Source: a virus (taxonomy: Duplodnaviria > Heunggongvirae > Uroviricota > Caudoviricetes). Taken from it: 31,472 nt of DNA. Of the stretch, positions 1 to 13,434 are shown piece after piece (the stretch's first letter is position 1; the number at the start of each line of letters is the position of its first letter). The stretch covers positions 1-31,472 of the IMG/VR virus record IMGVR_UViG_2585427730_000006; one strand, given 5' to 3'. The notes beneath the pieces are model-generated. The model worked only from the letters and a program-made list of their open reading frames with translations, did not search any database and was not told where the DNA came from. Position numbers and translations under genes: made by a program.

Positions 1-1335
<1,335 letters not shown>

Positions 1336-1575
1336 TTGCGGAGCAAGCGATACGGTTGTTGGCAAGTCAAGGGCAAAGCATTCGCGTGAGAGTGGGCGTC
1401 TGCTTTGTGCCAGAAGCGGACATTGCGGCGTTACGGCACGTTAGGTCAGATATTTAAATGCACATGGTCCGCTTGTGGCGGAAGGATACTTACAAGAGTT
1501 GGTGAGAGATAGTAAAATCAATATGAAAATTAAAATTCGGCAATAATTCCTGATATAGTCATCTTAATGAACATA

Positions 1576-1605
1576 AAAACTATCACAATAGGATAGTTTT
1601 TATGT
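1576..1605 (-). terminator. Rho-independent terminator closing the ParA-like operon
   Basis: Inverted repeat aaaactatc / gatagtttt with a 7-nt loop; on the minus strand the hairpin is followed by a T-run, just downstream of the 231-aa ORF stop (1618). Confidence 0.5.
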
Positions 1606-1617
1606 CATACTTGTTAG

Positions 1618-2313
1618 TTAATCACTTAAGGAATGAAGTGAGGCTCGTTGTGCAGAGGTTAAGCTAAGGAGGATTTTTTCTCGATACTCAGGTGCAAAGG
1701 AAAAGAAAACATCAGGAAAAATTCTTATGATAGTTGATATCATAGTCTTAACCACCTTATCAATCACCTTCGAAATATTATCTATTTTAACCAAGTCTAT
1801 TTCGGGAAAAACATTTAAAGCTTTTATGTGAGCCATTTCTTTTACAGTAGCTGTATGTACGTGACTGCATAACGAAGAGTATTCAGCTTTTAAAGTTTCA
1901 TGTAGTAGAGGATTTTTTTTGAAGACAGGATGTTCCCCAGTTTGTTCAATTACCTTAAACAATGATTTTTCTTCAAGTATTGAAGGATCTAGTAAGCAAC
2001 CGATTGATTTTAAAGAATTTTCAATATAACTTCGCATCATTAGATTTGCTGGTTTGTATGCACCATTTATAACCATAAACATAGCTGTACCAAGGTCAGA
2101 TGAAGCTTCTTGCAATCGCTCCAATGAGTTGGCGTCTATTTTCTCCTTGGAGAAATGATACAAACAGTAAACAAGGCACATAAAAGAATAATATCTCTTA
2201 TGTATCATGCTTATTTTCCCTCTTGAGTTAATATTCTCGAAAACATTTTTTAATTTATATTCAGAGAAATAAGTAACTAACTCAGTGAAATCGCTGTTTA
2301 CTTCTCTCGACAT
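1618..2313 (-). CDS. Hypothetical protein, 231 aa, third gene of the ParA-like operon
   Basis: Long ORF in AT-rich DNA, 2 nt from the upstream gene stop, same strand; no recognisable motif. Confidence 0.7.
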   Translation of the reverse strand: MSREVNSDFTELVTYFSEYKLKNVFENINSRGKISMIHKRYYSFMCLVYCLYHFSKEKIDANSLERLQEASSDLGTAMFMVINGAYKPANLMMRSYIENSLKSIGCLLDPSILEEKSLFKVIEQTGEHPVFKKNPLLHETLKAEYSSLCSHVHTATVKEMAHIKALNVFPEIDLVKIDNISKVIDKVVKTMISTIIRIFPDVFFSFAPEYREKILLSLTSAQRASLHSLSD

Positions 2314-2315
2314 TG

Positions 2316-2822
2316 TTAGTCCTTATTGAATATATCTTTTATAACTTCATTCCAGTCATATATCTCATTTTGAGCGCTAGAAAGGTTCTTCCTCTCTTTT
2401 ATTCTACTCAAAACTAGAGGGTTATTTGACATTGAATTGATAATATTATAAGCCTTACCTAAATCGGATGAGTTTTTCTCGTGAACGTCACACACGATTA
2501 TGCCGATCATTTCCTCTCTAGATCTTTTTTCAGGCCTGCTGATTTCGATACCTAACATGCGTGCAAAATCATCTATATCTTTATTTTTTTGGAAGAGATC
2601 TTTGTCTAATAAAATCCTCGGAAGATACCCAACAAGGAAACCTTTAATATCATTTTTTTTGGACTTTGAATTTCTTTCGTTAACTTCTAAATTATCAGTA
2701 TAACTATCTTGAAGTAATTCAATAAAGTTGATTCTTGATAATTTTTTTGAAATAAAGGAAAACTCCTCTAAAAAGTTTAACAGTTGCTTAATTTCTTTTG
2801 AGTTATTTTTTTTGTCAGTCAT
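2316..2822 (-). CDS. Hypothetical protein, 168 aa, Lys/Asn-rich, second gene of the ParA-like operon
   Basis: ORF whose start overlaps the ParA-like stop by 4 bp (ATGA), suggesting translational coupling; no recognisable motif. Confidence 0.7.
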   Translation of the reverse strand: MTDKKNNSKEIKQLLNFLEEFSFISKKLSRINFIELLQDSYTDNLEVNERNSKSKKNDIKGFLVGYLPRILLDKDLFQKNKDIDDFARMLGIEISRPEKRSREEMIGIIVCDVHEKNSSDLGKAYNIINSMSNNPLVLSRIKERKNLSSAQNEIYDWNEVIKDIFNKD

Positions 2823-3649
2823 AAGTCACCTACTCTAGAGAGAAGTTCGTCAGTAATTTTAGACAGCGAAAACTTCATATCCTCATCCGTTAAATTGTTA
2901 ATAAATAAGCCTCTTGTTTGATTTCTTGCCAACTCAGTACGTTTGCTCAAATATGATTTAAAGATCTTATTACGCCAACGTTTTTGATTATTGAAGTAAC
3001 GAAGACTTTCCTCATATAAATTACTATTACCTTCAACCATATTAAAAACTATGCCCGCACATTCAATCTTAAGATCGAAATTTTCTCTCTTCTCATTTAT
3101 AATGCTATCTAATAGATCGATACCAGTGATCGAAAGAGGATCGGGTTTGGCTGGAATGAGGTAATAATCAGATGCAATTAATGCGCTGGACATCCAAACT
3201 GATGGGGTTGGTGGGGTATCAATTATGACATAATCATAGTCATTTTCATGGATTTTAAGAAAGCGTCTAAGCTTGTTTTCTATCCCTTCTCCTGGTTTCA
3301 TTTCAATTTTATATAGCCCAAGGCTTCCGGGAACAATGTGAAAATTATCATTTAATTGAATTGGTGTTATATCGGCTAATTCTTTAGGTGTGTTAACTAA
3401 AGGACCAGTCATTGTAGATAGTCGAATTTTTGAACTATAAAAAATATCACATATGCTATCGCCTCCGCTTTTCATATGTGCAACATATTTGCTTGTATCC
3501 ATTACACATTGCGTTGCGTTAAATTGTGGGTCGATATCTATTAATAATATTTTTTGCCCAAGTTTATCTGAAAGATGATTAGCAATATTGGTAGCCAATG
3601 TTGACTTACCAACGCCACCTTTCATATTGATTAAGCTAATAACTTTCAA
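2819..3649 (-). CDS. ParA/Soj/MinD-family P-loop ATPase, 276 aa
   Basis: Deviant Walker A KGGVGKST at residues 10-17, LIDIDPQ motif, hydrophobic strand ending in DTPP (YVIIDTPP); no N-terminal HTH extension (type Ib-like architecture). Confidence 0.85.
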   Translation of the reverse strand: MKVISLINMKGGVGKSTLATNIANHLSDKLGQKILLIDIDPQFNATQCVMDTSKYVAHMKSGGDSICDIFYSSKIRLSTMTGPLVNTPKELADITPIQLNDNFHIVPGSLGLYKIEMKPGEGIENKLRRFLKIHENDYDYVIIDTPPTPSVWMSSALIASDYYLIPAKPDPLSITGIDLLDSIINEKRENFDLKIECAGIVFNMVEGNSNLYEESLRYFNNQKRWRNKIFKSYLSKRTELARNQTRGLFINNLTDEDMKFSLSKITDELLSRVGDL

Positions 3650-3660
3650 TCTTCTTGCTC

Positions 3661-3900
3661 CTGTTTTGATTAACGCTAAGCTTTTTCATCAGCATTGAAA
3701 TTTAACATGTGTTTTACAAACTTATGTCTTATCACTACCTTATCATTTTTTACATACACCATAAATATTTTTAACTAAAAATTTTTGGTTTTCAACCTGA
3801 AATCTTTATCTTTAAAAACAAAACATTACAATATTTTTAGTAAGATACCTTACCTAATGTAATGTGAATGGCTCAATTTTGATTAACACTTAAGCTATGT
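3661..3900. repeat. Imperfect direct repeat pair (ttttgattaacGCT-AAGCT / ttttgattaacACTTAAGCT) about 210 bp apart, bracketing the AT-rich region upstream of the ParA-like gene; an inverted repeat cattaca...tgtaatg lies between them at ~3824-3867
   Basis: Copies at about 3665-3683 and 3875-3895, read directly from the sequence. Confidence 0.4.
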
Positions 3901-4156
3901 TAATAATGGTTTTGTAAGTGTGATGAGGGTTCCATATGAAGAAGTGATTTCCCGAACAATACAACATGAATATCATCCTCGTAGTCGGTGTTTCTTCACA
4001 TGAACTCTGTCGCAAATACGCTATATGAAACGTGGCAAGATGAATGTACCTGAGGTTATCAATCTTAAACCGCTTGAGAGTACGCCCTGATCCTGCCCGT
4101 TGATAAACTAACTGCATTGTTTGTAATGCTTCATCGGTGGTGAGAACAAGTTTCAT
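3890..4156 (-). CDS. Hypothetical 88-aa ORF, possibly a gene remnant at the boundary of the AT-rich cassette
   Basis: The first ~60 codons are in moderate-GC DNA, the C-terminal ~30 codons run into AT-rich sequence containing the distal direct repeat; no motif recognised. Confidence 0.25.
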   Translation of the reverse strand: MKLVLTTDEALQTMQLVYQRAGSGRTLKRFKIDNLRYIHLATFHIAYLRQSSCEETPTTRMIFMLYCSGNHFFIWNPHHTYKTIINIA

Positions 4157-4662
4157 ACTTCCGCTTCTCGCTCAAAGCGGACTAGAAGGTTAGCTTGCGT
4201 CGGACTTGGCGTATTTAAAGAAGTACTGGTGGTGACTGGTTGTTGTGTTCCATTTCTACAGAACAAAATCACAGAAACTATACCCAATAGTTGTATCTCA
4301 TCAATGATGAGACAGCCTCATATTTATCAGGACTGGTGTACGTCCAATACAGGAGGTTGTCGTGCTGGTTCTCAAATGTGCGCTGGCTATTGCAGCTGTA
4401 ATGGCAATTTATTGTCTTGCTGTTGTTCTTATGGATCGCCTTTCTGATTGATTTTATATTGGCGAGGTAACGGGAGTTAAGTAGAATGGCTGCGGGTGCT
4501 TGAGGCTATCTGTCTCAGGCATGAACACCAAAGGCAGATAGAGAAAAGCCCCAGTTAACATTACGCGTCCTGCAAGACGCTTAACATTAATCTGAGGCTC
4601 AATCTATGAACGGCAAATCTAGGTTAGCCTCTTACGTGCCGAAAGGCAAGGAGAAGCAGGCT

Positions 4663-4818
4663 ATGAAGCAGCAAAAGGCGATGTTAATCGCCCTGATCGT
4701 CATCTGTTTAACCGTCATAGTGACGGCACTGGTAACGAGGAAAGACCTCTGCGAGGTACGAATCCGAACCGGCCAGACGGAGGTCGCTGTCTTCACAGCT
4801 TACGAACCTGAGGAGTAA
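4663..4818 (+). CDS. hokD: Hok/Gef-family type I toxin, 51 aa, HokD/RelF-like
   Basis: Translation MKQQKAMLIALIVICLTVIVTALVTRKDLCEVRIRTGQTEVAVFTAYEPEE has the Hok signature (single TM, conserved Cys, C-terminal AVF.AYE); AAGGAG RBS 11 nt upstream. The in-frame upstream extension from 4606 in the ORF track is probably not the real start. Confidence 0.8.
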   Translation: MKQQKAMLIALIVICLTVIVTALVTRKDLCEVRIRTGQTEVAVFTAYEPEE

Positions 4819-7244: not shown

Positions 7245-8528
7245 CTATGACCGTGAAAAGTAGTGATGGTTCAGTTCTTTTGCAAAATAGTGCTTACGTT
7301 TAACCCAGATAAAACCATCAGCTTTAGAAATGATTGCAACATCTATGGGGCCTCCCACTGTTTCAGTATCATCGGAGACCTTGCGCTTGAAAGCGGTTAA
7401 ATTTACTAATGATTCAGCCATATAAGCTAAATCTTGCTTGGGTAAAAACTCGATCATATTTACGACTTTGTCAACATAGTTTTCTCGGACAAAGCTATCA
7501 ATACGCCCCTTGCAATCGGAAACAGTTCTGCGCACTACATCAACTATAGCATCCTTGGCTCCTTCGATATCTGAAGTGGGCACCAAATCTGTGATTACTG
7601 AATCAATACCATCAAGTAAATCGCCGATAGAACGTTGATACTCAGCATGAAGATTTTGGATAAGATGTGAACTAGCTCCTTGCATGAAAGCAGAAACTTC
7701 ATCCTCTTGCGCAAAGGGAGTCACGCCGCAATTAGGAGTGATGCAGCACTTGTCAGCATCTGTGGTTTTCCTTATTTTATCATTAAAGAAGCCACAAACT
7801 TCATATGATAATACTTTAGGGTAATAGTCTTTATCGCCATAACCTGCAATCACAATCCCAGAGACGGAACCAATATCACTTTGCTTGCATATCATAGCTG
7901 CCAATACATCACTAACTGCTTTTGTCAACTGTGGAGTTATGGATATTGAATCAAAGTCACTAAACTTTTGAGCAATGATGCGTTGGGTAATTGATGAAGC
8001 ATAGGTTTGGGCTGCTTGTTCATCATCCGGAGTAAAACCATCAAAGTAATTAATATCAGATAATTTTGTAAGGAGATCGTTGCAATAATTCGTGAGGTCT
8101 GTAACAAATTGATTCTTATCGAAGTTAACGAGATATGTTGGTTCGAGACCTTCAGAAAAAGCATCAACAAGCATGCTGAATACAATCTCGCTCAGGAAGT
8201 GATAAAGATGAGCCTCACGCATACCTGGTGTGATGATTGATTTAGCTGACTGTAGATAATTGAAGAAATCCTCAGCATATTCCTCCAAAGAGTCAAAACA
8301 TTTAGAGCCTAAATCCTTTCTATAAGCCTTAATGATAAGCTCCCATGGAGCTGTGCAGAGATCACCAGTTCCATATACCATCAAACCTACAGGATGATGT
8401 TTAGTGAGAGCGAAAAGCTTTTCAGCGCCATTATAGATTTTATGTTTGCCGCCTCCAGAAATCGTTACAGCTGAATCTGCGGCTAAAGCTACTGCGGTCT
8501 TGTTAAATACGGCTATTTCTGCTGTCAT
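7245..8528 (-). CDS. Hypothetical protein, 427 aa; possible divergent proteasome-beta/HslV-like Ntn hydrolase with large insertions (inference only)
   Basis: Long ORF in visibly lower-GC DNA, opposite to late-gene orientation. N-terminus MTAEIAVFNKTAVALAADSAVT...GAEKLF aligns by eye with the proteasome-beta/HslV N-terminal segment (Thr1, acidic residue 17, Lys before LF); C-terminal GGPIDVAIISKADGF resembles the proteasome-beta GG.IDVAVI.KDG motif. Confidence 0.8.
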   Translation of the reverse strand: MTAEIAVFNKTAVALAADSAVTISGGGKHKIYNGAEKLFALTKHHPVGLMVYGTGDLCTAPWELIIKAYRKDLGSKCFDSLEEYAEDFFNYLQSAKSIITPGMREAHLYHFLSEIVFSMLVDAFSEGLEPTYLVNFDKNQFVTDLTNYCNDLLTKLSDINYFDGFTPDDEQAAQTYASSITQRIIAQKFSDFDSISITPQLTKAVSDVLAAMICKQSDIGSVSGIVIAGYGDKDYYPKVLSYEVCGFFNDKIRKTTDADKCCITPNCGVTPFAQEDEVSAFMQGASSHLIQNLHAEYQRSIGDLLDGIDSVITDLVPTSDIEGAKDAIVDVVRRTVSDCKGRIDSFVRENYVDKVVNMIEFLPKQDLAYMAESLVNLTAFKRKVSDDTETVGGPIDVAIISKADGFIWVKRKHYFAKELNHHYFSRS

Positions 8529-8668: not shown

Positions 8669-8784
8669 GTAAACTTGGTGCAGTACGGTAAACACGCTGG
8701 TGGTAGTGAATACTGACTTTTTATCTTGCTGGCTTTTTAGACAAGAGTTATTGGTATGTCATGTTAACCAGAAGGGAAAAAGAC

Positions 8785-9128: not shown

Positions 9129-10175
9129 ATGAAAAATACTGTAAAAATAAACAGTGTTGATTTAATCAACGCTGATTGCCTGCATTTTATTCAGTCCCTG
9201 CCTGATGATTCCATTGACCTGATTGTTACCGATCCGCCTTACTTCAAGGTGAAACCCAACGGTTGGGACAATCAGTGGAAAGGGGACGAAGATTACCTTA
9301 AGTGGCTGGACCACTGTCTGGCCCAGTTCTGGCGGGTGTTGAAACCTGCCGGAAGCCTTTACCTGTTCTGTGGGCATCGCCTGGCATCTGATATCGAAAT
9401 CATGATGCGTGAACGCTTTAATGTGCTGAACCACATTATCTGGGCGAAGCCGTCCGGACGCTGGAACGGATGCAACAAGGAAAGCCTGCGGGCGTATTTC
9501 CCGGCAACAGAGCGCATTCTGTTTGCTGAACATTATCAGGGGCCATACCAGCCCAAAAATGACGGCTATGCGGCAAAGGGGCGCGAGCTTAAACAGTGCG
9601 TCATGGCCCCGCTGATTTCTTACTTTCGTGATGCGCGAGAATCTCTGGGAATAACATCAAAACAGATAGCGGAAGCCACCGGAAAGAAAAACATGGCGTC
9701 ACACTGGTTTGGTGCCAGTCAGTGGCAGTTGCCGAACGAGGCTGATTACAAAAAACTTCAGGCGCTGTTCGCGCGTGTTGCAGCAGAAAAACACCAGCGC
9801 GGGGAGCTGGAAAAGCCGCACCACCAGCTGGTCAGCACATACAGTGAACTGAACCGGCAATATGCCAGCCTGCAGGAGGAGTATAAATCCCTGCGGCGTT
9901 ATTTTTCCGTATCAGCTGCTGTTCCGTATACGGATGTCTGGACGCACAAGCCTGTGCAGTATTATCCAGGCAAACATCCCTGTGAAAAACCGGCAGATAT
10001 GTTGCGTCAGATAATTACTGCCAGCAGTCGCCCCGGTGATTTGGTCGCTGATTTTTTTATGGGGTCTGGCTCAACAATAAAAGCAGCACTTTCACTGGGA
10101 CGTCGCGCAATTGGCGTGGAACTGGAAGAAGAGAGATTTAATCAGACTGTAACTGAAATAAAAAATAATCGTTAA
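9129..10175 (+). CDS. Orphan DNA methyltransferase, beta-class (N6-adenine or N4-cytosine)
   Basis: Motif IV DPPY (IVTDPPYF) near the N-terminus and motif I FxGxG (FFMGSGST) near the C-terminus, the circularly permuted beta-class order; no adjacent restriction endonuclease gene visible. Confidence 0.85.
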   Translation: MKNTVKINSVDLINADCLHFIQSLPDDSIDLIVTDPPYFKVKPNGWDNQWKGDEDYLKWLDHCLAQFWRVLKPAGSLYLFCGHRLASDIEIMMRERFNVLNHIIWAKPSGRWNGCNKESLRAYFPATERILFAEHYQGPYQPKNDGYAAKGRELKQCVMAPLISYFRDARESLGITSKQIAEATGKKNMASHWFGASQWQLPNEADYKKLQALFARVAAEKHQRGELEKPHHQLVSTYSELNRQYASLQEEYKSLRRYFSVSAAVPYTDVWTHKPVQYYPGKHPCEKPADMLRQIITASSRPGDLVADFFMGSGSTIKAALSLGRRAIGVELEEERFNQTVTEIKNNR

Positions 10176-10343
10176 ATATGCATTTAATAATTTCTTTATT
10201 TCATAAAAAATAAAAATATATACGTATATTTACAAATCTTGATATGATTTTCCATTGAAAAGAGAGCTGGCATTATTAATATCGGTACCCGGTTCCGAAG
10301 GGGATGTAAGCGCGGTCATTTTTATTTCTCTTGAGGAACCTGT

Positions 10344-10419
<76 letters not shown>

Positions 10420-10422
10420 TAT

Positions 10423-10497
<75 letters not shown>

Positions 10498-10855
10498 GAG
10501 AAACAAGCCTTATTGTATCGTTGCACTGGCGTATTTTTTATTGCGTGGGAGCAGGTTGTTTTTAAAAGGCATTCTGTTTTCTGGCTGTGATTTGAGGTCG
10601 GTTATAGCCACAGTGCTGTTTTTTACACCACTGGAATGGTGCATTATCGGTGGAAATTGAGCATTTCCTGACAGGGGCCGATGATGCACTATCCCGGTGT
10701 TGTAAATAACACTACAGAGGTGTTCCTCAGTGCGAGGGTGGTTTATGTAACTGTTTAGCGGGAAACCACAGTATTCATGGAGAGATGGATACTTCGGGGG
10801 GCACCCGACACCTCTGTTTTTCTACTACAAAAATGATTCATCTCTGGCATTTTTC

Positions 10856-10884
10856 AACCGCCGTTCCGGGCGGTTTTTTTTATT
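10856..10884 (+). terminator. Rho-independent terminator in the tRNA-to-lysis intergenic region
   Basis: aaccgcc-gttccg-ggcggtt followed by an 8-T run. Confidence 0.6.
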
Positions 10885-11201
10885 CTGAACTCAGAAAAGA
10901 ATACACGGGCATTGATATTACCCGTGTGGCAAGGCCATGAAAGCCAATAATGAACTGAGCGCAAAAAAAGCGCGGCTGTCGGATTAACGCCGCGGGACAA
11001 AGTCCGTGAAGAAGAATAAGCATCAGTCTCCTCCAGGAGACGATTTGATATTACTAAGCTTTAAAAATGGTTTAAACCCCCGGATTAACCTTAATTTCAG
11101 ATAAGCTTTATTTCATTTTCTCCGAGCCACGTCAGGCGCATATCACATCAGATAACACCACATAAAAGGTATCTGCGGGTGCCTTTCACGGGGTGTTTTT
11201 T

Positions 11202-11228
11202 TACGGGCCGCTGGTGGCCCTTTTTTAT
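11202..11228 (+). terminator. Terminator-like hairpin immediately upstream of the lysis cassette (candidate tR'-type element)
   Basis: gggcc-gctggt-ggccc followed by ttttttattt, ending ~15 nt before the holin RBS. Confidence 0.5.
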
Positions 11229-11244
11229 TTACAGGAGAAAAAGT

Positions 11245-11637
11245 ATGTCTGAACCCTTATCCGGTTCCGGCACGGCTGCAGCGCTCGGCGGGGCGACGGT
11301 GTACGGGCTGTTTACCGGAACGGATTTCGGGATTGTGTTTGGTGCCTTTGCCGGGGCGTTATTTGTGGCAACGATGCCGCAGGCGCTTTCAGCCTGGCGT
11401 GTGGCGGCACATTTTCTGGTGTCGTTCATTGTTGGTGTGCTGGGGGCAGAAGTTCTGGCATCCTGGCTGGTAAAGCATACAGAGTTTGACGGTGCACCTG
11501 TCGACGCATTGTGTGCAGTACTGGTGTCAGTGGTGTCGGTGAAGATTCTCTCGTTCATCCACCAGCAGGATATTGCATCACTGGTGTCCGGTCTGTTCTC
11601 CCGTCTGCGGGGCGGAGGAGGCGGCAATGTTAAGTAA
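11245..11637 (+). CDS. Putative holin, 130 aa, multi-TM
   Basis: AGGAG RBS before ATG 11245; several Gly/Ala-rich hydrophobic segments; first gene of the lysis cassette. The track ORF starts earlier, at 11179. Confidence 0.55.
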   Translation: MSEPLSGSGTAAALGGATVYGLFTGTDFGIVFGAFAGALFVATMPQALSAWRVAAHFLVSFIVGVLGAEVLASWLVKHTEFDGAPVDALCAVLVSVVSVKILSFIHQQDIASLVSGLFSRLRGGGGGNVK

Positions 11638-13140: not shown

Positions 13141-13434
13141 TTATTGTGAGCAATACACACGCGCTTCCAGCGGAGTATAAATGCCTAAAGTAATAAAACC
13201 GAGAAATCCATTTACGAATGTTTGCTGGGTTTCTGTTTTAACAACATTTTCTGCGCCGCCACAAATTTTGGCTGCATCAACAGTTTTCTCCTGTCCAATT
13301 CCCGAAACGAAGAAATGATGGGTGATGGTTTCCTTTGGTGTTACTGCTGTCGGTTTGTTTCCAACAGTAAACGTCTGTTGAGCACATCCTGTAATAAGCA
13401 TTGCCAGAGCGGCAGAAAACAACATTTTTTTCAT
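13141..13434 (-). CDS. bor: Bor lipoprotein (serum-resistance lysogenic conversion protein), 97 aa
   Basis: MKKMLFSAALAMLITGCAQQTFTV...LEARVYCSQ, near-identical to lambda Bor as recalled; start set at the MKKM ATG (13434) rather than the longer track ORF. Confidence 0.9.
   Translation of the reverse strand: MKKMLFSAALAMLITGCAQQTFTVGNKPTAVTPKETITHHFFVSGIGQEKTVDAAKICGGAENVVKTETQQTFVNGFLGFITLGIYTPLEARVYCSQ

What the first reader, a model, noticed from the sequence alone, without database searches (positions are those of the whole stretch)
1576..3900. AT-rich three-gene operon: ParA-like ATPase plus two unknown proteins, candidate undescribed system
A strongly AT-rich block on the minus strand encodes a ParA/Soj/MinD-family ATPase (Walker A KGGVGKST) followed by 168-aa and 231-aa proteins with no motif I can recognise, with tight spacing (4-bp ATGA overlap, then 2-nt gap) and its own terminator. 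The composition contrasts with the flanking prophage DNA, indicating separate acquisition. It sits where Qin-type prophages carry relBE next to hokD, a typical cargo slot. The partners do not look like a ParB/ParG centromere-binding protein, so a plain partition system is not the obvious reading; an anti-phage defence or abortive-infection module is a plausible alternative.
Basis: partly seen in the sequence, partly recalled or inferred. Interest (0 to 1): 0.78.

Follow-up and report, generated by a model that had tools for sequence, protein, structure and literature searches.

The report
Mobile ParA three-gene cassette, likely defence
A 2.8-kb mobile cassette encoding a ParA-type ATPase and two uncharacterised partner proteins is conserved as a unit across bacterial phyla and sits in the places where prophages and genomic islands keep anti-phage genes, so it is a credible but untested candidate for a new kind of defence system.

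Summary
Three tightly packed minus-strand genes lie in an AT-rich block: ParA (2819-3649), B (168 aa, 2316-2822) and C (231 aa, 1618-2313), followed by a strong hairpin.

It is not a plain partition locus:
- There is no ParB/ParG-like partner and no centromere-like repeats.
- Only 1 true plasmid of 72,556 carries it.

The ParA-B-C triad keeps the same order in all 13 species genomes recovered, spanning Pseudomonadota, Bacteroidota, Bacillota, Melainabacteria and Cloacimonadota. B has about 421 clusters and C about 390 representatives. Both families are always stand-alone and have no Pfam model.

In E. coli the same 2.79-kb unit (window 1395-4183, >99.6% identical) occupies at least four contexts:
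- this lambdoid slot upstream of hokD, where Qin has relBE;
- between the tail-fibre-assembly and tail-sheath genes of a P2-like prophage, which I take to be the Z/fun locus;
- CP4-44-type islands beside a type I R-M/DarTG cluster;
- the same island type with other cargo.

ParA keeps all catalytic motifs. B has a basic N-terminal tail, as ParA partners do. C is an all-helical protein with invariant R94/E98/Y145/H153. Its HEPN-like fold is only tentative.

No PADLOC model and no paper I could find describes this triad. My best reading is an ATPase-adaptor-effector conflict module. Its function is unproven.

The parts
1395..4183 (.). The mobile unit: the whole cassette as it occurs in other E. 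coli contexts
   Evidence: blastn of the window against L026 and L027 gives 1395-4182 and 1398-4183 at 99.6-99.8% identity, with unrelated flanks. Both end segments occur only together with the cassette, in 133 of 5426 genomes.
1398..1421 (.). Left-end palindromic element GTC(C/T)GCT-N10-AGCGGAC. An inverted partner lies at 1467-1479.
   Evidence: Junction comparison. Inverted repeat I10, 1409-1421 with 1467-1479. L026 and L027 share about 27 bp more to the left.
1571..1605 (-). Perfect 14-bp stem-loop directly after gene C; the probable transcription stop of the operon
   Evidence: RNA fold -17.2 kcal/mol, z = -4.6. Conserved as a 15-bp perfect stem in Enterobacter L005 at 8707-8744.
1618..2313 (-). 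Gene C, 231 aa. All-helical protein with invariant G84, R94, E98, Y145 and H153; the putative effector.
2316..2822 (-). Gene B, 168 aa. Helical protein with a basic N-terminal tail and an LPxLFxDxxLFxxNxDIxxFA...KRSRxExIG core; the putative ParA partner or adaptor.
2819..3649 (-). Gene A, 276 aa. ParA/Soj-type deviant Walker A ATPase with signature K10 and Walker A K15, catalytically intact.
   Evidence: Closest solved structures are pSM19035 delta (3e-21) and Soj. KGGVGK[ST]T, DxDPQxNATQ and DTPPTPS are conserved across phyla.
3650..3889 (-). AT-rich leader (GC about 0.27) upstream of parA, bracketed by a 14-nt direct repeat (3664-3677 and 3877-3890). Presumed promoter and regulatory region.
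   Evidence: Promoter-like hexamers are no more frequent than in shuffled sequence, so no promoter is demonstrated.
3890..4156 (-). Unannotated 88-aa ORF inside the cassette, upstream of parA. Status unknown.
   Evidence: ORF. No Pfam hit. Not annotated in RefSeq. Not conserved in Enterobacter, where homology to the window stops at 3650.
4160..4182 (.). Right-end palindromic element TCCGCTT-N8-AAGCGGA, exactly at the cassette boundary. It is also present at the cassette-free site of lambdoid phages.
   Evidence: RNA fold -12.3 kcal/mol, z = -2.8. The 41-bp piece 4160-4200 matches phages Evi and mEp460. The roughly 660 E. coli records that lack the full cassette probably match this same piece, but their match coordinates were not inspected.

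Best explanation
This is a self-contained, horizontally mobile three-gene conflict module. Most likely it is an anti-phage or anti-mobile-element system carried as prophage or island cargo and expressed from its own AT-rich leader.

Proposed working (inferred, not shown):
1. A is an active ParA/Soj-type ATPase. It dimerises with ATP and acts as the nucleotide-dependent switch, probably on the nucleoid as other ParA proteins do.
2. B is its dedicated partner. Its basic N-terminal tail would stimulate or read the ATPase, as the tails of ParB, ParG and McdB do. Its conserved helical body would hold C.
3. C is the effector. It is an all-helical, possibly HEPN-like or DUF5677-like enzyme with a non-canonical invariant R94-E98 / Y145-H153 constellation.
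4. Infection, or entry of foreign DNA, would change the ATP- or DNA-bound state of A and so release or activate B-C.

Shown here: the gene anatomy, the strict co-occurrence of the three families, intact ATPase motifs, the mobility of the unit, and its contexts.

Inferred: the defence function, the A-B and B-C contacts, the trigger, and the chemistry of C.
For: Strict co-occurrence and order:
- A-B-C is found in the same order, with overlapping or nearly abutting genes, in 13 of 13 GTDB species loci where the sequence allows it to be seen. These span Gamma- and Betaproteobacteria, Bacteroidota, Bacillota, Melainabacteria and Cloacimonadota.
- The same holds in metagenomic, Enterobacter, Burkholderia and Shewanella loci.
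- The ParA proteins of these loci match the window's ParA at 1e-44 to 1e-85, against 1e-19 to 1e-21 for Soj and delta. They form a dedicated subfamily.

Both partner families are broad:
- C has 390 representatives at 50% identity.
- B has 421 clusters.
- Both are always stand-alone.

Mobility in E. coli: the identical 2.79-kb unit sits in four contexts.
- A lambdoid prophage upstream of hokD.
- A P2-like prophage between the tail-fibre-assembly and tail-sheath genes. I take this to be the Z/fun locus. PMC13586616 names Z/fun as an antiviral locus, but its map position comes from my own knowledge.
- CP4-44-type islands beside HsdM-HsdS-DarT-DarG-HsdR.
- The same island type with other cargo.

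Neighbours in other taxa:
- Type I HsdR, AbiTii, a Schlafen-type helicase, and integrase plus resolvase.
- A P4-like integrative element next to DUF4238. A DUF4238 protein is a validated defence gene in PMC9122126.
- A TIR protein about 7 kb from the triad in an IS-rich region.

The same lambdoid slot holds other morons: an acetyltransferase in phage Evi and relBE in Qin.

Protein features:
- ATPase motifs are intact across phyla.
- B's first 15 residues carry on average 3.8 K/R and a net charge of +2.1, against -0.1 per 15 residues in the rest of the protein.
- C has five invariant residues across 127 sequences that are 20-40% identical.
Against: - There is no experimental phenotype. The context evidence was not tested statistically.
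- Several loci are flanked only by housekeeping genes: L013, L014, L019, L020, L034.
- No PADLOC model matches B or C. That fits novelty, but it is not positive evidence.
- C lacks the HEPN Rx4-6H motif.
- Foldseek against the PDB finds nothing significant for C.
- Pfam HEPN and DUF5677 hits are all below threshold.
- hhalign of the C family against one DUF4145 domain gives probability 0.2%.
- A DUF5677 gene tested in E. faecalis was not among the defence-positive genes (PMC12632615).
- B has no significant structural or sequence relative, so its adaptor role is inference.
- ParA proteins are classically partition or positioning proteins.
Confidence: 0.5

Rival explanations
1. A non-canonical partition or positioning system. 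A is the motor, B is a new type of partner (a ParB, ParG or McdB analogue), and C is either a DNA- or cargo-binding component or the cargo itself. The module would stabilise the element that carries it, or position a complex in the cell.
For: - A is a complete, catalytically intact type Ib ParA, closest to pSM19035 delta and Soj.
- B has the basic N-terminal tail typical of ParA-stimulating partners.
- The triad lies directly after rep, overlapping its end, on the 5.8-kb Plesiomonas plasmid p11184.
- In L002 it is co-directional with the phage replication genes.
Against: - Only 1 true plasmid of 72,556 carries B or C, even when searched with a divergent query. On that plasmid the ParA frame is broken.
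- No sequenced phage carries it, plasmid-prophages included.
- Most copies are in integrated prophages or islands, or between housekeeping genes, where partition is not needed.
- No iteron or centromere-like repeat arrays are found near the triad in 10 loci.
- B has no RHH or HTH signature.
Confidence: 0.15
2. A toxin-antitoxin-like addiction or stabilisation module. C would be the toxin, B would neutralise it, and A would regulate them. The module would persist on mobile elements by post-segregational killing rather than by defending against phage.
For: - It occupies the very slot that holds relBE next to hokD/sok in Qin.
- It shares plasmid p11184 with RelBE.
- It is found on prophages, islands and integrative elements.
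- Translational coupling and tight spacing are typical of toxin-antitoxin operons.
- C is missing in one locus that keeps A and B (L033).
Against: - No MNT-type or other known antitoxin is present.
- C lacks Rx4-6H.
- A 276-aa ATPase conserved in every locus is not explained by a simple two-part toxin-antitoxin pair.
- Addiction and abortive-infection defence are not mutually exclusive, so this rival overlaps the best explanation.
Confidence: 0.15
3. A host-directed lysogenic-conversion function. For example, a MinD/ParA-like modulator of chromosome segregation, cell division or nucleoid organisation that benefits the lysogen, unrelated to conflict.
For: - ParA/MinD family members position many cellular structures (established knowledge).
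- The window's prophage also carries dicB.
- Some loci sit among housekeeping genes.
Against: - Patchy, horizontally scattered distribution: 2.5% of E. coli genomes, and single species in many phyla.
- Repeated association with mobile-element cargo regions and defence genes.
- A C-terminal membrane-targeting helix of the MinD type is not apparent in the ParA sequence.
Confidence: 0.05

Closest known systems
Type Ib ParA-ParB/ParG partition loci (pSM19035 delta-omega, TP228 ParFG, Soj-Spo0J)
   Same: A is a small deviant-Walker-A ParA with all catalytic motifs. Its best solved relatives are delta (3e-21) and Soj. The gene downstream encodes a small protein with a basic N-terminal tail, and the genes are translationally coupled.
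   Different: - No RHH or HTH centromere-binding homologue.
- No centromere-like repeats.
- An obligatory third gene.
- Almost never on plasmids.
- Sits in integrated elements and defence hotspots.
- Scores below the NCBIfam ParA_partition cut-off, 90 against 180 bits.
ParA/MinD-type cargo-positioning systems with unrelated partners (McdAB for carboxysomes, PomXYZ, ParC-ParP)
   Same: A ParA-class ATPase is paired with a lineage-specific small partner that has a charged N-terminus and no homology to ParB. Such partners link the ATPase to a protein cargo (established knowledge).
   Different: Those systems are vertically inherited next to their cargo genes. This triad is a horizontally mobile cassette, and no cargo can be identified other than C.
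HEPN-domain toxins and effectors (HepT-MntA, Abi-type HEPN proteins, Cas13/Csm6 HEPN) and Pfam DUF5677
   Same: - 45 of 127 family members touch DUF5677 and 7 touch HEPN PF05168, all weakly.
- The DUF5677 hits cover the conserved core, residues 81-153.
   Different: - No Rx4-6H motif. The invariant residues are R94 and E98 on one helix and Y145 and H153 on another.
- All Pfam hits are below threshold.
- Foldseek finds nothing significant.
- No MNT partner.
- C is about twice the size of a minimal HEPN domain.
Menshen (NsnABC) and other sensor-ATPase-effector defence triads
   Same: A three-gene operon with the proposed logic of sensor or switch, then transducer, then effector. It borrows a chromosome-partition fold, ParB in Menshen and ParA here (PMC12065111). 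It is also mobile.
   Different: No homology. Menshen uses ParB-DUF262, an ABC ATPase and an inPIN/BECR effector. No PADLOC model of Menshen or any other system matches B or C.
Inactive MinD/ParA-like effector domains in NTP-dependent conflict systems (Kaur, Burroughs, Iyer and Aravind 2020)
   Different: Those ParA-like domains are fused to kinases or AP-ATPases and are predicted to be inactive. Here ParA stands alone and is catalytically intact. The EAD resemblance is not significant.

Membership tests
ParABS-type (type Ib) partition locus | Deviant Walker A ParA ATPase with signature lysine, Walker A' and Walker B | tested here: met
   KGGVGKST, DIDPQFNATQ and DTPPTPS are conserved across 16 sequences from several phyla. 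AAA_31 1.4e-37, CbiA 1.4e-18.
ParABS-type (type Ib) partition locus | Adjacent centromere-binding protein of the ParB (HTH) or ParG/omega (RHH) type | tested here: not met
   [not shown]
ParABS-type (type Ib) partition locus | Cis-acting centromere made of repeats next to the operon | tested here: not met
   Only isolated two-copy short repeats are found in the flanks of 10 loci, with no arrays and nothing conserved between loci. A degenerate or intragenic site cannot be excluded.
ParABS-type (type Ib) partition locus | Residence on low-copy plasmids, plasmid-prophages or near chromosomal origins | tested here: not met
   One true plasmid of 72,556, small and mobilizable, with a broken ParA frame. 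No match in 50,697 phage records. NCBIfam ParA_partition scores 90 bits against a cut-off of 180.
HEPN superfamily (protein C) | Four-helix up-down HEPN core fold | tested here: inconclusive
   [not shown]
HEPN superfamily (protein C) | Rx4-6H catalytic motif | tested here: not met
   The invariant residues are G84, R94, E98, Y145 and H153. The motifs read RSxIEN and YxxLCxxVHTA, with no R 4-6 residues before the invariant H.
Pfam DUF5677 / PF05168 HEPN (protein C) | Score above the Pfam gathering threshold | tested here: not met
   The window protein gives no hit. 45 of 127 relatives hit DUF5677 (best E 1.2e-5) and 7 hit HEPN (best 9.5e-5). The individual scores I sampled were 14-17 bits against a cut-off of 27.1.
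HEPN-MNT toxin-antitoxin | Adjacent minimal nucleotidyltransferase antitoxin | tested here: not met
   The neighbouring genes are ParA and B. No NTase domain is found in the triad.
Any described anti-phage system (PADLOC-DB v2.0.0) | Component proteins match the system's HMMs | tested here: not met
   B and C give 0 families at E <= 1. A gives only a P-loop-local match to PDC-M28B (3.8e-5, residues 4-40). Newer DefenseFinder or PADLOC releases were not available.
Defence-island or mobile-element cargo gene (guilt by association) | Recurrent location in known defence hotspots or next to defence genes | tested here: inconclusive
   Positive cases:
- the P2 tail-fibre/sheath slot;
- beside type I R-M plus DarTG;
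- HsdR, AbiTii and SLFN-helicase neighbours;
- DUF4238 in a P4-like element.

Against: at least 5 loci have housekeeping flanks only. No enrichment statistic was computed.
ParA/MinD positioning system with a novel partner | Partner protein with a positively charged N-terminal tail that could stimulate the ATPase | tested here: met
   In 134 B sequences the first 15 residues hold on average 3.8 K/R. 99% have at least 2. Net charge is +2.1, against -0.13 per 15 residues elsewhere. Actual stimulation of the ATPase cannot be tested here.

The most novel reading that the evidence does not exclude
This would be the first immune system built on a ParA/MinD-class (SIMIBI) ATPase. The ATPase coats the host nucleoid in its ATP form and, through the adaptor B, keeps a non-canonical HEPN-like enzyme C in check. 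Phage attack on the nucleoid, or incoming foreign DNA or ParB-like proteins, would collapse the ParA-DNA state and unleash C. Partition machinery would thus be turned into a guard of chromosome integrity, spread as a hairpin-bounded cassette between prophages, satellites and islands.
Probability: 0.2. Interest if true: 0.85.

Novelty: new variant of a known kind. Interest (0 to 1): 0.68.

Why it matters
If the cassette defends against phages or plasmids, three things follow:
- It would add a new class of NTPase, ParA/MinD, to bacterial immunity.
- It would give a function to two orphan protein families with hundreds of members across phyla (phrog_12497 and phrog_12265).
- It would show how partition machinery can be re-used for conflict.

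It is present in about 2.5% of complete E. coli genomes. These include ETEC prophages and an island shared by many clinical isolates, so it could affect the phage susceptibility of clinically relevant strains.

If it proves to be a positioning or addiction module instead, it would still be a ParA system with an entirely new partner and cargo.

The experiments are simple. The unit is 2.8 kb, self-contained, and native to E. coli.

Tried and rejected
- **Ordinary ParAB partition.** Rejected as the main reading: no ParB/ParG homologue, no repeat arrays, 1 of 72,556 plasmids, no phage-plasmids.
- **Membership of a known defence system.** PADLOC v2 gives nothing for B or C. Menshen, checked in the literature, is unrelated. 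Rousset's P2 hotspot paper does not mention ParA. The RefSeq accessions and PHROG ids appear in no paper searched.
- **Canonical HEPN RNase for C.** The motif test failed. Foldseek and hhalign gave no support. A PDB sequence-profile search with 127 sequences found nothing.
- **B as a relative of C, that is, a shared adaptor domain.** hhalign probability 0.4%.
- **Technical failures.**
  - The wide alignment A3 was too diverse for the search for related loci.
  - The close alignment A1 found no GTDB representative. A4 succeeded.
  - The afdb50 fold library was unavailable.
  - Brenes & Laub 2025 and Christie & Calendar 2016 are not held, so I could not check whether the former tested this cassette.
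- **Promoter scan.** It gave no more sites than shuffled sequence, so no promoter is claimed.
Full report
**1. Observation**

The window holds three minus-strand ORFs exactly as described:
- A, 2819-3649, 276 aa, TTG start, N-terminus MKVISLINMKGGVGKST.
- B, 2316-2822, 168 aa.
- C, 1618-2313, 231 aa.

A and B overlap by 4 bp. B and C are 2 nt apart. RefSeq annotates the same three CDS in the identical chromosome segment of ETEC strain 120899.

GC content falls to 0.27-0.36 between about 1500 and 3900. The immediate flanks are at 0.40-0.46 and the prophage DNA further out at 0.51-0.56.

A perfect 14-bp stem-loop lies at 1571-1605, just after C. As RNA it folds at -17.2 kcal/mol, z = -4.6, and none of 200 shuffles folds as well. 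Enterobacter keeps it. No U-tract follows it, so 'terminator' is plausible but not textbook.

The slot claim is correct. In K-12 Qin, relB-relE lie directly upstream of hokD. Here the cassette lies upstream of sok (4494-4668, Rfam 110 bits) and hokD. The order in the window's prophage is: replication genes, IS elements, BCCT transporter, DUF2254, then C-B-A, then hokD, DUF968, RusA and Q.

**2. The three proteins**

*Protein A* is an unambiguous ParA-superfamily ATPase.
- Family hits: AAA_31 1.4e-37, CbiA 1.4e-18, phrog_164 5.7e-60.
- It scores below NCBIfam's ParA_partition cut-off, 90 against 180 bits.
- Its closest solved relatives are pSM19035 delta (3e-21) and Soj.
- In 16 family members from several phyla, the deviant Walker A (KGGVGK[ST]T), DxDPQxNATQ and the DTPPTPS Walker B are all conserved. 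The enzyme should therefore be active.

*Protein B* has no Pfam, NCBIfam, PADLOC or PDB sequence match.
- A cross-phylum profile finds 421 clusters. All are stand-alone proteins of 155-180 aa with no Pfam domain.
- Conserved features are an LPxLFxDxxLFxxNxDIxxFA...KRSRxExIG core and a C-terminal WN.
- The N-terminal 15 residues are consistently basic: mean 3.8 K/R and net charge +2.1, against -0.13 per 15 residues elsewhere.
- The AF2 model (pLDDT 74.6) is all-helical.

*Protein C* also has no database match as a single sequence.
- An exhaustive profile search finds 390 representatives at 50% identity, nearly all 225-245 aa.
- Across 127 sequences that are 20-40% identical, G84, R94, E98, Y145 and H153 are invariant. 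Y19, E69, S72, Y86, K87, L148, C149 and P170 are at least 90% conserved. That pattern suggests an enzyme.
- The AF2 model is confident (pLDDT 84, pTM 0.80) and all-helical.
- 45 of 127 members weakly hit DUF5677 and 7 hit HEPN PF05168. The DUF5677 hits lie over residues 81-153.
- Against the HEPN reading: Foldseek is not significant, hhalign against one DUF4145 domain is negative, and there is no Rx4-6H motif.
- I therefore call C 'HEPN-like, tentative'.

**3. Co-occurrence**

A-B-C, in that order and tightly packed, is found in:
- a 42%-identical lambdoid prophage, in the same position between lambda-P and RusA/Q (L002);
- Enterobacter, 72% identical (L005);
- a 34%-identical metagenomic contig (L006);
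- all 13 GTDB species loci recovered with a divergent C alignment.

The 13 GTDB loci come from:
- Gammaproteobacteria: Psychromonas, Thalassotalea, Photobacterium, Leucothrix.
- Betaproteobacteria: Janthinobacterium, Noviherbaspirillum, Denitromonas.
- Bacteroidota: Hallella.
- Bacillota: a Lachnospiraceae bacterium, Solibacillus, Lysinibacillus.
- Melainabacteria and Cloacimonadota.

Two of these contigs are cut. L012 lacks the ParA end and L016 holds only part of ParA.

The ParA proteins of these loci match the window's ParA at 1e-44 to 1e-85. That is far better than Soj or delta, so they are a dedicated subfamily.

**4. Partition is unlikely**

- tblastn of C, of B and of a divergent C against 72,556 plasmids finds one true plasmid. 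It is the 5.8-kb mobilizable Plesiomonas p11184. There the triad follows rep, but the ParA frame is broken.
- None of 50,697 phage records has it.
- No repeat arrays flank the triad in 10 loci.
- Many copies sit between housekeeping genes or in integrated elements.

**5. Mobility and context**

In E. coli the unit 1395-4183 is more than 99.6% identical in unrelated surroundings. It occurs in 133 of 5426 complete genomes.

Contexts seen in E. coli:
- (a) This lambdoid slot.
- (b) A P2-like prophage, between the tail-fibre-assembly and tail-sheath genes (L027). From my knowledge of the P2 map this is the Z/fun locus. PMC13586616 lists Z/fun as an antiviral locus of P2.
- (c) CP4-44-type islands: Ag43 and GTPase, then C-B-A, then HTH, HsdM, HsdS, DarT, DarG and HsdR. 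This was the most frequent context, seen in 5 of the 9 E. coli loci inspected.
- (d) The same island type with other cargo.

Contexts in other taxa:
- Immediately after a type I HsdR (L017).
- Immediately before AbiTii (L015).
- After a Schlafen-group-3 helicase (L024).
- Between an integrase and a resolvase (L023).
- In a P4-like integrative element of Burkholderia multivorans, next to a resolvase and a DUF4238 protein. A DUF4238 protein is a validated defence gene in PMC9122126.
- In an IS-rich region beside mutS, with a TIR protein about 7 kb away.
- With only housekeeping flanks in L013, L014, L019, L020 and L034.

Phage Evi has a different minus-strand moron, an acetyltransferase, in the same slot.

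Both cassette ends carry related palindromes: left GTC(C/T)GCT-N10-AGCGGAC, right TCCGCTT-N8-AAGCGGA. The right one is also present at the cassette-free site of phages Evi and mEp460. The roughly 660 E. coli records that lack the full cassette probably match the same piece, but I did not inspect their match coordinates. This suggests the hairpins are the crossover points.

**6. Interpretation**

The best-supported reading (confidence 0.5) is a mobile ATPase-adaptor-effector conflict module, most likely anti-phage or anti-mobile-element.

- Shown: the anatomy, the co-occurrence, intact ATPase motifs, mobility and context.
- Inferred: that A is the nucleotide- or DNA-dependent switch, that B is its partner through the basic tail and is the link to C, and that C is the effector.

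The rivals are:
- a non-canonical partition or positioning system (0.15);
- a toxin-antitoxin-like addiction module (0.15, overlapping with abortive infection);
- a host-directed function (0.05).

**7. Novelty**

- PADLOC v2 has no model for B or C.
- Ten literature searches found no ParA-based anti-phage system and no mention of these accessions.
- Menshen is only an architectural analogue.
- MinD/ParA-like domains in predicted conflict systems are fused and predicted to be inactive (PMC7159879).
- I could not read Brenes & Laub 2025, which screened E. coli prophage defences.

I rate the cassette a new variant of a known kind, namely a mobile multi-gene NTPase-effector cassette, or a ParA system with new partners. 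Interest is 0.68. It is real, widespread, easy to test and built from two orphan families. Its function remains unproven.

Noticed in passing
window 1398-1421, 1467-1479 and 4160-4182: The cassette is bounded by related short palindromes (TCCGCT-N8-10-AGCGGA). The right one, together with the adjoining backbone (4160-4200), is also found in lambdoid phages Evi and mEp460, which lack the cassette. The extra E. coli records probably match it too. The hairpins look like the crossover points used to swap cargo between prophages and islands. No recombinase was identified.
   Followed up: partly
window 3890-4156 (-): An unannotated 88-aa ORF lies inside the mobile unit, upstream of parA. It has higher GC (about 0.42) than the operon and no Pfam hit. 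It is present in all E. coli copies but not in Enterobacter. It could be a regulator, a gene remnant or non-coding.
   Followed up: partly
window 3664-3677 and 3877-3890: A 14-nt direct repeat (TTTTGATTAAC[G/A]CT) brackets the AT-rich leader of the operon. One copy lies just before the parA ribosome-binding site, the other just after the 88-aa ORF. It may be an operator pair or a chance match.
   Followed up: no
window 4494-4818 (+): A complete hok/sok-type locus: the sok RNA (Rfam RF01794, 110 bits) overlaps the start of the hokD reading frame. The type I toxin-antitoxin neighbour of the cassette therefore appears intact.
   Followed up: partly
window 1-1335; L001 8139-14936: To the left of the cassette the prophage carries further non-phage cargo: a BCCT-family transporter and a DUF2254 membrane protein. 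IS3 and IS100 copies lie on one side of these. The slot has been hit repeatedly.
   Followed up: no
window about 7245-8528 (-): A second AT-rich block (GC 0.37-0.43) lies just after the Q antiterminator gene. It holds a 427-aa hypothetical protein on the minus strand and is another moron-like insertion of unknown function.
   Followed up: no
window 9129-10497 and 13141-13434: The prophage also carries a DNA methyltransferase, two tRNA genes (Thr and Gly, 10344-10494) and the iss serum-survival lipoprotein gene.
   Followed up: no
L025 (Plesiomonas plasmid p11184) 3664-4482: On the only plasmid carrying the triad, the ParA reading frame is split (3664-4212, then 4252-4482 in another frame), while B and C are intact. 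This is either an old sequencing error or a natural ParA-defective variant.
   Followed up: no
L033 (Microbulbifer) 9172-11247: This locus has A and B, but no full-length C gene is called downstream. It lies in an IS91- and IS110-rich region that also holds a TIR-domain protein. It may be a decaying copy. C was not searched for at the DNA level.
   Followed up: no
L027 (E. coli S19-141 P2-like prophage) 9974-10843: The tail-sheath gene next to the inserted cassette is truncated, and no tail-tube (FII) or E gene is annotated. This P2-like prophage is therefore probably defective.
   Followed up: no
L028 (NZ_CP194962.1) and NZ_OL790696.1: Two records look mislabelled or unusual. A 243-kb 'plasmid' carries the whole chromosomal Ag43, cassette and R-M/DarTG island. 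A 4.8-Mb E. coli chromosome is filed in the plasmid database.
   Followed up: no
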